A DNA stretch of 64,000 nucleotides from Escherichia phage PinkRuby: the sequence record PP925839.1; one strand, given 5' to 3'. The notes below the pieces were generated by a model that was not told where the DNA came from, made no database searches, and saw only the letters and a program-made list of their open reading frames with translations. Numbering within the stretch: position 1 is the first letter of the stretch; every line of letters begins with the position of its first letter. The position numbers and the translations under genes are program-made. This document shows, in pieces, positions 35,518-36,680 of this stretch.

Positions 35518-36081
35518 TTATTTATCTAGTTTAGTTATTATAGCTTCTGCGGCAGCTTTTAGCTTAGATGCGGTGTTAATACGATTTTTAATTTCAGTAT
35601 ACGCATCGCCAAGAACATCAAGGCTATCAGAATAAACACTTACACTATTGCGTTCGCTATTTGAAATAGAACCTTTAGTTTTACGATCAAAATCGGTGTA
35701 CACGTCTTGAAGATCACGGGCTGCCTTCTTTGCATCATCCAATGCATCAAGAGCTTTATTCAAAGCATTAACGTATTTTTTAGTGTCGAACATATTCTTA
35801 GAAATTTTAACAGGTGCGCGTTCAGGAGTAGCTAACACAGATTTAGGAACCTGAGCGCCAGATGCCAATTTCTTAGAAATTTTGAAAAATGCTTTGTTGA
35901 ATTTATTTTCTTGACTCATTGTAAAAGAACTATTATCGATGTTGTACATTTCAATAGCTTTAGCTTTCCACTTAAGAAAATCGCCGCGGTCTTTTGGGTC
36001 CAAGTGGAAAAATACTTTAGTAAGATCTGCTTCAGATGGTAATTTTGCTGCTTCGGTTAAAAATTCGGCATAGGTTTTCAT
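35518..36081 (-). CDS. Internal-protein-like head protein with capsid targeting sequence
   Basis: 187 aa; N-terminus MKTYAEFLTEAA; Lys/Ala-rich. Confidence 0.65.
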   Translation of the reverse strand: MKTYAEFLTEAAKLPSEADLTKVFFHLDPKDRGDFLKWKAKAIEMYNIDNSSFTMSQENKFNKAFFKISKKLASGAQVPKSVLATPERAPVKISKNMFDTKKYVNALNKALDALDDAKKAARDLQDVYTDFDRKTKGSISNSERNSVSVYSDSLDVLGDAYTEIKNRINTASKLKAAAEAIITKLDK

Positions 36082-36175
36082 TTAAAATCCTTGAAATAAT
36101 TTATCGGTTGGTTATTAATTATTTATTACTTTGTTATTATCCGTAACAGCATTCTCTATGTGATTCAAACTAAAA

Positions 36176-36199
36176 AGCCCCAACCTTTCGGCTGGGGCT
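36176..36199 (-). terminator. Intrinsic terminator (copy 1 of a 34-bp direct repeat)
   Basis: AGCCCCAGCC-GAAA-GGUUGGGGCU hairpin followed by UUUUUAGU on minus-strand RNA. Confidence 0.65.
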
Positions 36200-36206
36200 A
36201 AGAATG

Positions 36207-36680
36207 TTATTTGATTTGTTTAGCAGACCAAATGCGGTCTTTAATAATCTTTTGGATGTCTTCAACATACTCTAGGTCATGAGCATGTGGATTATCTTTG
36301 AAACTATGAGCTCGCGCAAGTTTCTGGCCTTCGGTCTTAATTATCAAAAGTTCTTTAAGAATTGCTTCATACCTAGAGATAATTCCTTTAGCAATATTTT
36401 TTTCTTGTGCTGCTTTAGGGTCAGCCTTAGGAGCAGGTTTACCTGAAGCCTTTGCAAAAGCAGCTCCAGTAGCAACTAAACTTTTCCAAGCCATACTAAC
36501 TGCATTCCCTGTAAATCCTTCGGCTTTCATATCACGAGCAAATTGGAATCGTGATTCATCGGAAGCATCTTTATAGGAATATTTACCCGCGGCAATGGCA
36601 GCTTTTGCGACAGCTTGAATTTCGGTGCTAGATGCTTCATTTAACACCGCTTCATTTAAAAATTGAGCATATGATTTCAT
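36207..36680 (-). CDS. Internal-protein-like head protein with capsid targeting sequence
   Basis: 157 aa; N-terminus MKSYAQFLNEAV; SD AGGAAA; flanked by identical terminators. Confidence 0.65.
   Translation of the reverse strand: MKSYAQFLNEAVLNEASSTEIQAVAKAAIAAGKYSYKDASDESRFQFARDMKAEGFTGNAVSMAWKSLVATGAAFAKASGKPAPKADPKAAQEKNIAKGIISRYEAILKELLIIKTEGQKLARAHSFKDNPHAHDLEYVEDIQKIIKDRIWSAKQIK

What the first reader, a model, noticed from the sequence alone, without database searches (positions are those of the whole stretch)
35518..36680. Second pair of CTS-bearing internal-protein-like genes just upstream of the tRNA region
ORFs 35518-36081 (MKTYAEFLTEAA) and 36207-36680 (MKSYAQFLNEAV) carry the same capsid-targeting-type N-terminus but divergent Lys/Ala-rich bodies. 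Together with 29848, 30338 and 39481 the window encodes five CTS proteins, against three in T4, implying an expanded injected-protein repertoire.
Basis: partly seen in the sequence, partly recalled or inferred. Interest (0 to 1): 0.6.

Follow-up and report, generated by a model that had tools for sequence, protein, structure and literature searches.

The report
Two unnamed T4-type internal protein genes
Two real, conserved genes of a T4-like phage carry the short N-terminal tag that T4 uses to load proteins into its head and inject them, so they are very probably unnamed members of the known "internal protein" class, sitting at a third variable site next to the tRNA genes.

Summary
On the minus strand, ORF1 (35518-36081, 187 aa, MKTYAEFLTE|A) and ORF2 (36207-36680, 157 aa, MKSYAQFLNE|AVLNE|A) begin with T4's capsid targeting sequence. 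They keep the four positions shown by mutagenesis to matter: Y4 and F7 for targeting, L8 and E10 for gp21 cleavage. Both are under purifying selection (dN/dS 0.03-0.13), have Shine-Dalgarno sites, late-promoter motifs and terminators, and encode basic Lys/Ala-rich proteins like IPII and IPIII. The bodies match no named Ip family, no Pfam family and no solved fold.

They lie between the tRNA-cluster terminator and e.8, a site that is empty in T4, T2 and T6. RB32 has ORF2 only, RB14 has ORF1 only, and about 127 phage records hold most of the two-gene stretch. ORF2 is flanked by a 40-nt duplicated terminator. Every record row examined calls them "hypothetical".

Diverse CTS proteins in T-even phages have been known since 1994, and all four characterised ones inhibit type IV restriction. 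This is therefore a new member of a known kind, and five CTS genes is not unusual.

One surprise: in a published transposon screen of phage Bas37, the ORF1 homolog took insertions at 1 of 48 sites and was classed "Essential". This is unexplained.

The parts
35518..36081 (-). ORF1, 187 aa. Predicted propeptide is residues 1-10 (MKTYAEFLTE). The predicted mature protein is 177 aa, 19.7 kDa, pI 9.5.
   Evidence: ORF. Found in 164 phage records, all >=80 % covered, and 'hypothetical' in every row shown. phrog_2280, 'unknown function'. dN/dS 0.03-0.04. AF2 model pLDDT 58: three short helices, a linker at 74-99, then two long helices.
36052..36081 (-). The first ten codons of ORF1, forming the capsid targeting sequence with the gp21 site L8-T9-E10|A11.
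   Evidence: Eight of ten residues are identical to T4 IPII/IPIII MKTYQEFIAE. Positions 4, 7, 8 and 10 are the functionally mapped ones (PMC9026906).
36207..36680 (-). ORF2, 157 aa. Predicted propeptide is residues 1-10 or 1-15 (MKSYAQFLNE|AVLNE|A). The predicted mature protein is about 142 aa, 15.5 kDa, pI 9.55.
   Evidence: ORF. Found in 511 phage records. phrog_2280. dN/dS 0.07-0.13. AF2 model pLDDT 77: N-domain helices 18-71, a Pro/Lys linker, and a helical hairpin at 88-154.
36636..36680 (-). The first 15 codons of ORF2: the CTS with two tandem L-N-E|A cleavage motifs.
   Evidence: M1, an aromatic at position 4 and F7 are kept in every family member, and L/V at 8 and E at 10 in most, in relatives only 26-28 % identical overall.
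36717..36724 (-). Consensus T4 late promoter TATAAATA, 36 nt before the ORF2 ATG and directly after the tRNA-unit terminator.
   Evidence: The same motif is annotated as a late promoter in phage SA21RB.
36120..36127 (-). AATAAATA, 38 nt before the ORF1 ATG. It is a candidate late promoter of the A(-13) variant type.
   Evidence: Sequence. A(-13) replaces T at 9 of the 50 listed T4 late promoters (PMC2988020). RB14 has GATAAATA at the same place. Function is inferred, not shown.
36687..36690 (-). Shine-Dalgarno AGGA, 6 nt before the ORF2 start.
36088..36092 (-). Shine-Dalgarno AAGGA, 6 nt before the ORF1 start.
36731..36754 (-). Terminator hairpin AGCCCCAGCCGAAAGGTTGGGGCT plus a T-run, at the end of the tRNA/rnaD/rnaC transcription unit. 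It is the upstream boundary of the cassette site.
   Evidence: In T4 the equivalent hairpin (two stem bases differ) runs straight into the e.8 upstream region.
36176..36199 (-). An exact second copy of the same hairpin, acting as the terminator after ORF2.
   Evidence: It is part of the 40-nt direct repeat 36163-36202 / 36718-36757, 95 % identical. The RB32 record notes 'flanked by 34 bp imperfect direct repeat'.
35491..35509 (-). A different hairpin terminator, CCCTATCTAAATGATAGGG plus a T-run, after ORF1.
   Evidence: It shares only GGGCTTTTT with the other hairpin.
35795..35892 (-). Two 23-nt direct repeats (35795-35817 and 35870-35892) that bracket the linker-coding part of ORF1.
   Evidence: Phage CT01 has an in-frame 25-aa deletion exactly between the KISK...KISK repeats.
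36397..36403 (-). An A7 run in the ORF2 linker region, at or next to the point where truncated alleles leave the reading frame.
   Evidence: The alleles in F26, P0006 and P0009 diverge right after 'AQEK'.

Best explanation
ORF1 and ORF2 are functional late genes of a Tequatrovirus. They encode two unnamed families of T4-type internal proteins.

Inferred mechanism:
1. Each is transcribed late. ORF2 has a consensus TATAAATA motif, ORF1 an AATAAATA variant.
2. The N-terminal 10-residue capsid targeting sequence docks the protein to the gp22/gp67/gp68 scaffolding core while the prohead assembles.
3. The prohead protease gp21 cuts after the L-x-E motif, after E10 and, in ORF2, possibly also after E15.
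4. This frees a basic mature protein of about 15-20 kDa, which stays in the head with the DNA.
5. The protein is injected with the genome and acts at the very start of infection.

By analogy with every characterised CTS protein, the most likely task is to block a host nuclease-type first-line defence. IPI, IPII and IPIII act against three GmrSD variants, and Bas37_0260 acts against McrBC.

The two genes occupy a third variable internal-protein site, wedged between the terminator hairpin of the tRNA cluster and the e.8 early promoter. The site holds 0, 1 or 2 such genes in different phages. Gain or loss of ORF2 is explained by recombination between the duplicated hairpin copies.

Shown here: the genes are real and constrained; they carry the CTS and cleavage motifs, regulatory motifs, IP-like composition, and a cassette-like distribution.
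Inferred: packaging, cleavage, injection and the target.
For: CTS
- T4 IPII/IPIII start MKTYQEFIAE|A. ORF1 starts MKTYAEFLTE|A and ORF2 starts MKSYAQFLNE|A.
- Mutagenesis mapped targeting to residues 4 and 7 and processing to residues 8 and 10, and the gp21 motif is L/I-X-E (PMC9026906). All four positions are kept.
- The motif occurs at only 4 places in six-frame translation of 64 kb, all of them gene starts.
- M1, an aromatic at position 4 and F7 are kept in every ORF2-family member from Klebsiella, Serratia, Cronobacter and Yersinia T4-likes, and L/V at 8 and E at 10 in most. These relatives are only 26-28 % identical overall.

Coding reality
- dN/dS is 0.03-0.13 with dS up to 1.27.

Expression signals
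- Shine-Dalgarno sites, late-promoter motifs 36 and 38 nt upstream of the starts, and terminators after each gene.

Composition and size
- pI 9.5, K 13-15 %, A 12-19 %, like IPII and IPIII. This is rare in the window: 3 of 100 ORFs, the third being Ip5.

Machinery
- The closest relative, KRT47, has ORF1 100 % identical at the protein level and encodes gp20, gp67, gp68, gp21, gp22 and gp23.

Locus
- Empty in T4, T2 and T6. ORF2 only in RB32 and in the Mosigvirus Shf125875. ORF1 only in RB14. About 127 records cover >=80 % of the two-gene stretch.
- Junction sequences show the genes inserted exactly in the T-run after the tRNA-unit hairpin.

Functional analogy
- Ip1-3 each inhibit a distinct GmrSD (PMC12373910). 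Bas37_0260 inhibits McrBC.
Against: - No direct evidence exists that either protein is in virions, is cleaved or is injected. No paper or proteome mentioning them was found.
- The bodies match no named Ip family, no Pfam or NCBIfam family and no solved fold. Only generic helical hairpins matched. The anti-defence role therefore rests on analogy alone.
- ORF1 has only a variant late-promoter motif.
- The site is not one of the two classical Ip loci.
- Classical Ips are dispensable, but the ORF1 homolog bas37_0243 had insertions at 1 of 48 TA sites and was classed 'Essential' in the Bas37 HIDEN-SEQ library. Its neighbours, including the ORF2 homolog, tolerated insertions.
- That in turn conflicts with natural phages that lack ORF1 or carry 1-nt deletions in it: G4500, OE5505 and RB69.
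Confidence: 0.75

Rival explanations
1. The proteins are packaged through the CTS, but they act as general head-interior or DNA-associated components rather than as inhibitors of a specific host defence. Possible roles are charge neutralisation, DNA condensation, help with ejection, or part of the scaffolding core. In its lineage ORF1 may have become a required structural or assembly component.
For: - Both mature proteins are strongly basic and Lys/Ala-rich. T4 IPs bind DNA at low salt and are present at about 300 copies each (PMC9026906).
- The predicted architecture is a simple helical bundle plus a long helical hairpin with no enzyme-like fold.
- The ORF1 homolog behaves like an essential gene in Bas37, with 1 of 48 TA sites hit. 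That fits a structural requirement better than an accessory anti-defence role.
Against: - Many closely related phages, including T4, T2, T6 and RB32, assemble normal heads without ORF1.
- Phages with single-base deletions in ORF1 have been isolated.
- IPI, IPII and IPIII have similarly basic composition yet turned out to be specific GmrSD inhibitors.
- The ORF2 N-domain evolves fast (dN 0.21-0.29) while its C-domain is nearly frozen (dN 0.03-0.04). That pattern looks more like a target interface plus a conserved module.
Confidence: 0.15
2. The CTS-like N-termini are hitch-hikers. The 5' gene end (Shine-Dalgarno site plus the first 30 nt) is a recombination joint shared among Ip-type cassettes. 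The proteins are not packaged and work inside the producing cell.
For: - The ribosome-binding site and first ten codons are similar at the DNA level between ORF1 and ORF2 (42 nt, 76 %) and among all five CTS genes. This is the kind of shared sequence that recombination between Ip genes would need.
- ORF2 is visibly mosaic. Compared with RB32, the N-half is identical in DNA (dS 0.02) and the C-half is diverged (dS 1.05).
Against: - The peptide motif is kept where the DNA and the rest of the protein have diverged to 26-28 % identity and the leader length varies. That indicates selection on the peptide itself.
[quoted passage not shown] A protein starting with such a sequence and made late would therefore be expected to be packaged.
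Confidence: 0.07
3. They are decaying or non-expressed ORFs (pseudogenes), as the first reader offered as a way to refute the finding.
For: Frameshifted copies occur. For ORF2: F26, SfPhi01-type P0006 and P0009. For ORF1: RB69 ORF148c/149c, G4500 and OE5505.
Against: - In the window both reading frames are intact, with Shine-Dalgarno sites, promoter motifs and terminators.
- dN/dS is 0.03-0.13 across comparisons with dS up to 1.27.
- Full-length copies are present in 164 and 467 phage records.
Confidence: 0.02

Closest known systems
T4 internal proteins IPII and IPIII (genes ipII, ipIII)
   Same: - The N-terminal propeptide is of the same type: MKTYQEFIAE|A versus MKTYAEFLTE|A and MKSYAQFLNE|A.
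- The size is similar (IPIII 193 aa, ORF1 187 aa).
- Both are basic and Lys/Ala-rich.
- Each is a small monocistronic gene in a variable region of a Tequatrovirus genome.
   Different: - There is no sequence similarity beyond the propeptide.
- The genomic site differs: the tRNA terminator/e.8 junction rather than the denV-e interval.
- No experimental evidence exists for packaging or for a target.
- The ORF1 homolog looks non-dispensable in one screen, whereas ipI-III are non-essential.
The polymorphic Ip palette of T-even phages (Ip4, Ip5, Ip7, Ip9 and others; Repoila et al. 1994; Bas37_0260)
   Same: - They are unrelated bodies behind one conserved CTS.
- Presence varies between closely related phages in a cassette-like way.
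- The genes are flanked by repeated regulatory sequence (RB32 notes '43 bp direct repeat' around Ip7/Ip9 and '34 bp imperfect direct repeat' around ORF133c).
   Different: - The described palette sits in the ipI and ipII/ipIII loci. PMC12373910 speaks of 'two Ip loci'.
- These two families sit at a third site and are not named Ip in any record row examined, even in RB32 and RB14, where Ip4, 5, 7 and 9 are named.
PeSL elements (promoter-early stem-loop cassettes) of T4-like phages (Arbiol 2010; Comeau 2014)
   Same: - A terminator stem-loop joined to a promoter is repeated on both sides of a variable gene. It offers homology for excision or insertion of single-gene cassettes in hyperplastic regions.
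   Different: - The promoter attached to the hairpin is a late-type TATAAATA box, not an early sigma-70-like promoter.
- The repeated hairpin is the terminator of the tRNA transcription unit.
- Only ORF2 has a long (40-nt) flanking repeat. ORF1 is flanked by 9-13 nt of identity.

Membership tests
T4-type internal (capsid-targeted, injected) proteins | An N-terminal capsid targeting sequence resembling MKTYQEFIAE, with the targeting-critical residues at positions 4 and 7. | tested here: met
   ORF1 has Y4 and F7 and ORF2 has Y4 and F7, identical to IPIII. The roles of these positions come from PMC9026906. The motif is found only at gene starts in the window.
T4-type internal (capsid-targeted, injected) proteins | A gp21 prohead-protease site L/I-X-E at the end of the propeptide (residues 8-10), followed by a small residue. 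| tested here: met
   ORF1 has L8-T9-E10|A. ORF2 has L8-N9-E10|A and L13-N14-E15|A. Actual cleavage was not tested.
T4-type internal (capsid-targeted, injected) proteins | The phage has the gp21 protease and the gp22/gp67/gp68 scaffolding core that receive CTS proteins. | tested here: inconclusive
   These genes lie outside the window, which ends in gene 17. The closest relative, KRT47, is 97 % identical over the locus in DNA and has ORF1 100 % identical at the protein level. It encodes gp20, gp67, gp68, gp21, gp22 and gp23.
T4-type internal (capsid-targeted, injected) proteins | Synthesis at the time of prohead assembly (late promoter). | tested here: inconclusive
   ORF2 has a consensus TATAAATA 36 nt upstream. 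ORF1 has AATAAATA, the commonest T4 variant (9 of 50 sites), 38 nt upstream. These are motifs only, with no transcript data.
T4-type internal (capsid-targeted, injected) proteins | Physical presence of the processed protein in virions and its injection into the host. | not testable with these tools
   No virion proteome or paper mentioning these proteins was found.
T4-type internal (capsid-targeted, injected) proteins | A small, basic protein. | tested here: met
   The predicted mature proteins are 19.7 and 15.5 kDa, with pI 9.46 and 9.55 and net charge +7 to +8. This is comparable with IPII and IPIII.
T4-type internal (capsid-targeted, injected) proteins | Dispensable for growth on laboratory hosts. 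| tested here: inconclusive
   From published Bas37 transposon data: the ORF2 homolog is non-essential (29 of 34 sites hit), while the ORF1 homolog is classed 'Essential' (1 of 48 sites). Yet ORF1 is absent from T4, T2, T6 and RB32 and is frameshifted in G4500, OE5505 and RB69.
Classical polymorphic Ip loci (ipI locus between 57B and trna.4; ipII/ipIII locus near denV/e) | The gene lies in one of the two described loci. | tested here: not met
   The pair lies between the rnaC/tRNA terminator and e.8.
Named Ip sequence families (IPI, IPII, IPIII, Ip4, Ip5, Ip7, Ip9, RB69 internal head proteins) | Sequence similarity of the mature part. | tested here: not met
   An all-against-all BLASTP with the first 20 residues removed gave no hit for ORF1 or ORF2 at E<0.5. 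Both fall in phrog_2280, 'unknown function'.
Type IV restriction (GmrSD/McrBC) inhibitors | Binding to and inhibition of a cognate type IV restriction enzyme. | not testable with these tools
   This rests only on analogy with Ip1-3 and Bas37_0260. There is no sequence or fold similarity to IPI* or any other inhibitor.
PeSL cassettes | A composite stem-loop plus early promoter, repeated on both sides of the variable gene. | tested here: not met
   The stem-loop is repeated on both sides of ORF2 (40 nt, 95 %). The attached promoter motif is late-type, not early. ORF1 has different hairpins on its two sides.

The most novel reading that the evidence does not exclude
The tRNA-terminator/e.8 junction is a third internal-protein site of Tevenvirinae that I found named in no paper or record examined. 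ORF1 would be an internal protein that its phage cannot do without, unlike IPI-III. One possibility is that it neutralises a barrier present even in restriction-deleted E. coli K-12. Another is that it counteracts a liability created by another gene of the same phage lineage.

The near-absence of transposon insertions in bas37_0243 would then be a real phenotype. The natural ORF1-less or frameshifted phages would carry compensating differences.
Probability: 0.25. Interest if true: 0.7.

Novelty: new member of a known kind. Interest (0 to 1): 0.42.

Why it matters
Every CTS-tagged protein of T-even phages that has been tested is a specific injected inhibitor of a type IV restriction enzyme. There are four so far: IPI, IPII, IPIII and Bas37_0260. 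Unnamed CTS proteins are therefore ready-made candidates for new anti-defence factors and for determinants of phage host range, which matters for therapeutic Tequatroviruses.

These two families occur in hundreds of sequenced phages. ORF1 is in 164 records and ORF2 in 511, with relatives in Klebsiella, Serratia, Cronobacter and Yersinia phages. They are absent from the model phages T2, T4 and T6, which may explain why no record or paper I examined names them.

They also show that the internal-protein palette is not confined to the two classical loci. In addition, the terminator of the tRNA cluster serves as a cassette junction.

The unexplained 'essential' call for the ORF1 homolog in Bas37 gives a concrete experiment in a phage that already has genetic tools.

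Tried and rejected
- **Homology of the bodies.** Pfam, NCBIfam and PHROGs gave only weak sub-threshold hits (cytochrome b562, TraA) or 'unknown function'. I rejected these as non-informative.
- **Paralogy of ORF1 and ORF2.** Both hit phrog_2280 strongly. BLASTP and hhalign, however, align only the 10-residue CTS, and the Klebsiella and Yersinia relatives do not bridge them. Common ancestry of the bodies is not shown. Only a similar predicted layout is shared, and the ORF1 model is of low confidence.
- **A holin.** The KRT47 record note 'GpT holin family, predicted by COILS' is not supported. The proteins are hydrophilic and basic, and no holin family matched.
- **A toxin-antidote pair (ORF2 toxic without ORF1).** I considered this because of the Bas37 data and rejected it as a general rule. 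RB32 and Shf125875 carry ORF2 alone, and RB14 carries ORF1 alone.
- **A laboratory-stock deletion as the cause of the missing ORF1 insertions in Bas37.** This cannot be excluded. It is less likely than for ORF2, because ORF1 is flanked by only 9-13 nt of identity. No per-site data were available.
- **Literature.** Searches for the protein accessions and for virion proteomes found nothing. Repoila 1994, Bair 2007 and Rifat 2008 are not held in the library. What they say is taken from papers that cite them.
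Full report
**What the window is.** The window is a stretch of a Tequatrovirus (T4-like) genome. Around the finding, the minus strand carries, in transcription order: gene 1, 57A, 57B, an Ip5-type gene (39481-39738), trna.4/.3/.2 homologs, eleven tRNA genes (37435-38455), the rnaD/rnaC region, the two ORFs of the finding, then e.8 ... nudE, e, denV, and two further CTS genes (30338-30655 and 29848-30321 = Ip4). The 1.6-kb stretch is 97 % identical to Shigella phage KRT47 and 95-96 % identical to many members of the ime09 group.

**Observation.** Both ORFs are present as described, on the minus strand, with the quoted N-termini. A strict CTS pattern applied to all six frames of the 64 kb hits only four places, all at the starts of plausible genes. 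The fifth gene, 39481, has the longer IPI/Ip5-type leader. T4 itself has three such genes. The bodies are Lys/Ala-rich and basic. Mature ORF1 is 19.7 kDa with pI 9.46, K 14.7 % and A 12.4 %. Mature ORF2 is 15.5 kDa with pI 9.55, K 13.4 % and A 19.0 %. T4 IPII and IPIII are very similar. Only three of 100 non-overlapping ORFs in the window combine K>=12 % with A>=11 %, namely these two and the Ip5 homolog. The one inaccuracy is 'upstream of the tRNA region'. In the direction of transcription the pair lies downstream of the tRNA cluster.

**Are they real genes?** Yes. ORF1 compared with RB14 and CT01 gives dN/dS 0.03-0.04. ORF2 compared with RB32, sutha and the Mosigvirus Shf125875 gives 0.07-0.13, with dS up to 1.27. 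Each has a Shine-Dalgarno site 6 nt before the ATG and an intrinsic terminator behind it. ORF2 has a consensus late promoter, TATAAATA, 36 nt before its start. ORF1 has AATAAATA 38 nt before its start. This is the commonest deviation among the 50 listed T4 late promoters, with A at -13 at nine sites (PMC2988020). RB14 has GATAAATA at the same place. The promoter assignment for ORF1 is an inference.

**Is the N-terminus a capsid targeting sequence?** T4 IPII and IPIII begin MKTYQEFIAE|A. ORF1 begins MKTYAEFLTE|A and ORF2 begins MKSYAQFLNE|AVLNE|A. [quoted passage not shown] Targeting depends mainly on residues 4 and 7, processing depends on residues 8 and 10, and gp21 cuts after L/I-X-E. ORF1 and ORF2 keep Y4, F7, L8 (inside the L/I class) and E10, followed by Ala. 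In the wider ORF2 family, M1, the aromatic at 4 and F7 persist in every member, and L/V at 8 and E at 10 in most, in proteins only 26-28 % identical overall and with leaders of different length. That family comprises 13 clusters at 50 % identity among 1.84 billion proteins, all from T4-like phages of Escherichia, Klebsiella, Serratia, Cronobacter, Yersinia, Enterobacter and Erwinia. This argues for selection on the peptide itself, not merely inheritance of a recombination joint. The protease and core genes lie outside the window, which ends in gene 17. They are present in KRT47, whose ORF1 protein is identical.

**What the bodies look like.**
- With the leader removed, neither protein resembles the other or any named Ip (IPI-III, Ip4, Ip5, Ip7, Ip9, RB69 internal head proteins). 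Profile-profile comparison aligns only the ten CTS columns.
- Pfam and NCBIfam give nothing above threshold. PHROGs places both in phrog_2280, 'unknown function'.
- AlphaFold models predict the same layout for both: leader, three short helices, a Pro/Lys-rich linker, then a long antiparallel helical hairpin (ORF2 pLDDT 77; ORF1 pLDDT 58).
- ORF2 is modular in evolution. Against RB32, the leader plus N-domain are identical in DNA (dS 0.02) while the C-domain has dS 1.05, so a recombination joint lies in the linker.
- Against more distant alleles, the ORF2 N-domain changes fast (dN 0.21-0.29) while the C-domain is almost frozen (dN 0.03-0.04 at dS 0.5-0.9).
- In Klebsiella, Serratia and Yersinia phages the same N-domain is joined to a different C-domain.
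- In ORF1, phage CT01 has lost exactly the 25-residue linker between two 23-nt direct repeats.

**The locus.** In T4, T2 and T6 nothing is encoded between e.8 and rnaC. The T4 sequence runs from the hairpin AGCCCCGACCGAAAGGTTGGGGCT-TTTTT straight into GGTATCTAAGCCTTTCC, the e.8 upstream region.
- RB32 reads: hairpin, TATAAATA, ORF2, hairpin, then the same downstream sequence. Its curators noted a '34 bp imperfect direct repeat'.
- RB14 reads: hairpin, ORF1, a different hairpin, then the same downstream sequence.
- The window has both genes in series, with a 40-nt, 95 % direct repeat (36163-36202 and 36718-36757) around ORF2.
- RB69 has a frameshifted ORF1 (ORF148c/149c). Shf125875 has ORF2 only.
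- In Klebsiella phage KpV477 and Serratia phage Muldoon, the ORF2-family gene also lies directly after tRNA genes. The association with the tRNA cluster is therefore old, and loss in the T4 lineage is as likely as gain elsewhere.

In the phage collection, ORF1 occurs in 164 records and ORF2 in 511. About 127 records cover at least 80 % of the two-gene stretch. All rows shown call them hypothetical. This includes the curated RB32 and RB14 records, in which Ip4, Ip5, Ip7 and Ip9 are named. The arrangement resembles the PeSL cassettes of Arbiol and Comeau, except that the promoter joined to the stem-loop is of the late type.

**Comparison with what is known.** It is established that T-even phages carry a diverse set of internal proteins sharing only the CTS, in polymorphic loci (Repoila 1994, as cited in PMC3012670, and PMC12373910). 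Silas et al. 2025 showed that Ip1, Ip2 and Ip3 each inhibit a different GmrSD type IV restriction enzyme, and they speak of 'two Ip loci'. Srikant et al. 2022 showed that IPIII is needed on ECOR17. Humolli et al. 2025 showed that Bas37_0260, another CTS protein at the ipI locus, inhibits McrBC. ORF1 and ORF2 therefore fit a known class. Three things are new: two sequence families that no record row examined names as Ips, a third site, and the link to the tRNA terminator. Five CTS genes is not exceptional, since RB32 has five and RB69 up to seven by the same criterion.

**An unexpected datum.** Bas37 is Escherichia phage KarlGJung, MZ501089. It carries both genes: bas37_0243 is ORF1, 98.2 % identical in DNA to the window copy, and bas37_0244 is ORF2.
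- In the saturated Himar1 library of that phage, bas37_0243 had insertions at 1 of 48 TA sites and is classed 'Essential'. Its mean counts of 0.2 are like those of baseplate genes.
- In the same library, bas37_0244 (29 of 34 sites), e.8, and the ORF next to the tRNAs are 'Non-essential', with hundreds of reads.
- The authors do not comment on this.
- It clashes with the natural absence of ORF1 from T4, T2, T6, RB32 and others. It also clashes with three independent single-base deletions in ORF1 of isolated phages. Two of these (G4500, RB69) are outside homopolymers, and one (OE5505) is in an A6 run.
- Possible explanations are a lineage-specific requirement, an effect specific to insertion rather than to loss of function, or a deletion or mapping problem in the stock used. 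ORF1 is flanked by only 9-13 nt of identity, so spontaneous excision is less likely than for ORF2. No per-site data were available to decide. I leave this unexplained and list the experiments that would settle it.

**Verdict.** The concept is known and the count is unremarkable. The two families, the third locus and the Bas37 result make it a useful lead rather than a surprise. I put confidence at 0.75 that both are packaged, gp21-processed internal proteins. Conditional on that, the chance that they are specific anti-defence factors is roughly even.

Noticed in passing
window 30338-30655 (-): A 105-aa ORF starting MKTYKEFIAE|SA. It is 95 % identical over the aligned 63 residues (about 60 % of its length) to RB69ORF124c and falls in phrog_3966, 'unknown function'. 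It is another CTS protein that is not annotated as an internal protein, lying next to Ip4 (29848-30321, DUF7412).
   Followed up: partly
window 29848-31635 (-): The gene order here is e, denV, the 105-aa CTS gene, Ip4. In T4 it is e, ipIII, ipII, denV. In this phage the Ip genes of the second locus therefore lie on the other side of denV.
   Followed up: no
window 36397-36403 (-), inside ORF2: An A7 run. Truncated ORF2 alleles in other phages (F26, SfPhi01-type P0006, P0009) leave the frame directly after 'AQEK' at or next to this run. They are either recurrent slippage mutants or homopolymer sequencing errors.
   Followed up: partly
L008 (Escherichia phage vB_Eco_F26) 1719-1841: A 40-aa remnant ORF fuses the first 12 residues of e.8 to the last 28 residues of ORF1, next to an intact ORF1 and a frameshifted ORF2. 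This is evidence of duplication and illegitimate recombination at this site.
   Followed up: partly
window 37066-37416 (-): A 116-aa ORF (MKGNVYLVVHDLTFYF...) lies between the rnaD/rnaC region and tRNA-Arg. Homologs are T2_136, RB69ORF150c and bas37_0245, the last of which is non-essential in the Bas37 transposon screen. It is absent from T4. Its function is unknown.
   Followed up: no
window 37435-38455 (-): There are eleven tRNA genes (Arg, His, Asn, Tyr, Met/Ile-CAU, Thr, Ser, Pro, Gly, Leu, Gln) against eight in T4, and no segB homing endonuclease gene inside the cluster.
   Followed up: no
window 33311-34551 (-), e.5 and e.6 homologs: By their position in the gene order, these correspond to bas37_0239 and bas37_0240. 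In one conditional comparison of the HIDEN-SEQ tables (K-12 against another host or condition; the sheet heading was not seen), those two genes were strongly depleted (log2 fold change -3.6 and -6.5, q=0). The authors built a bas37_0240 knockout but do not discuss it in the main text.
   Followed up: no
L005 (RB69) 11429-11991; L017 (OE5505) 901-1463; L018 (G4500) 901-1463: ORF1 is split by independent single-base deletions in three isolated phages. Two of the deletions are not in homopolymer runs.
   Followed up: yes
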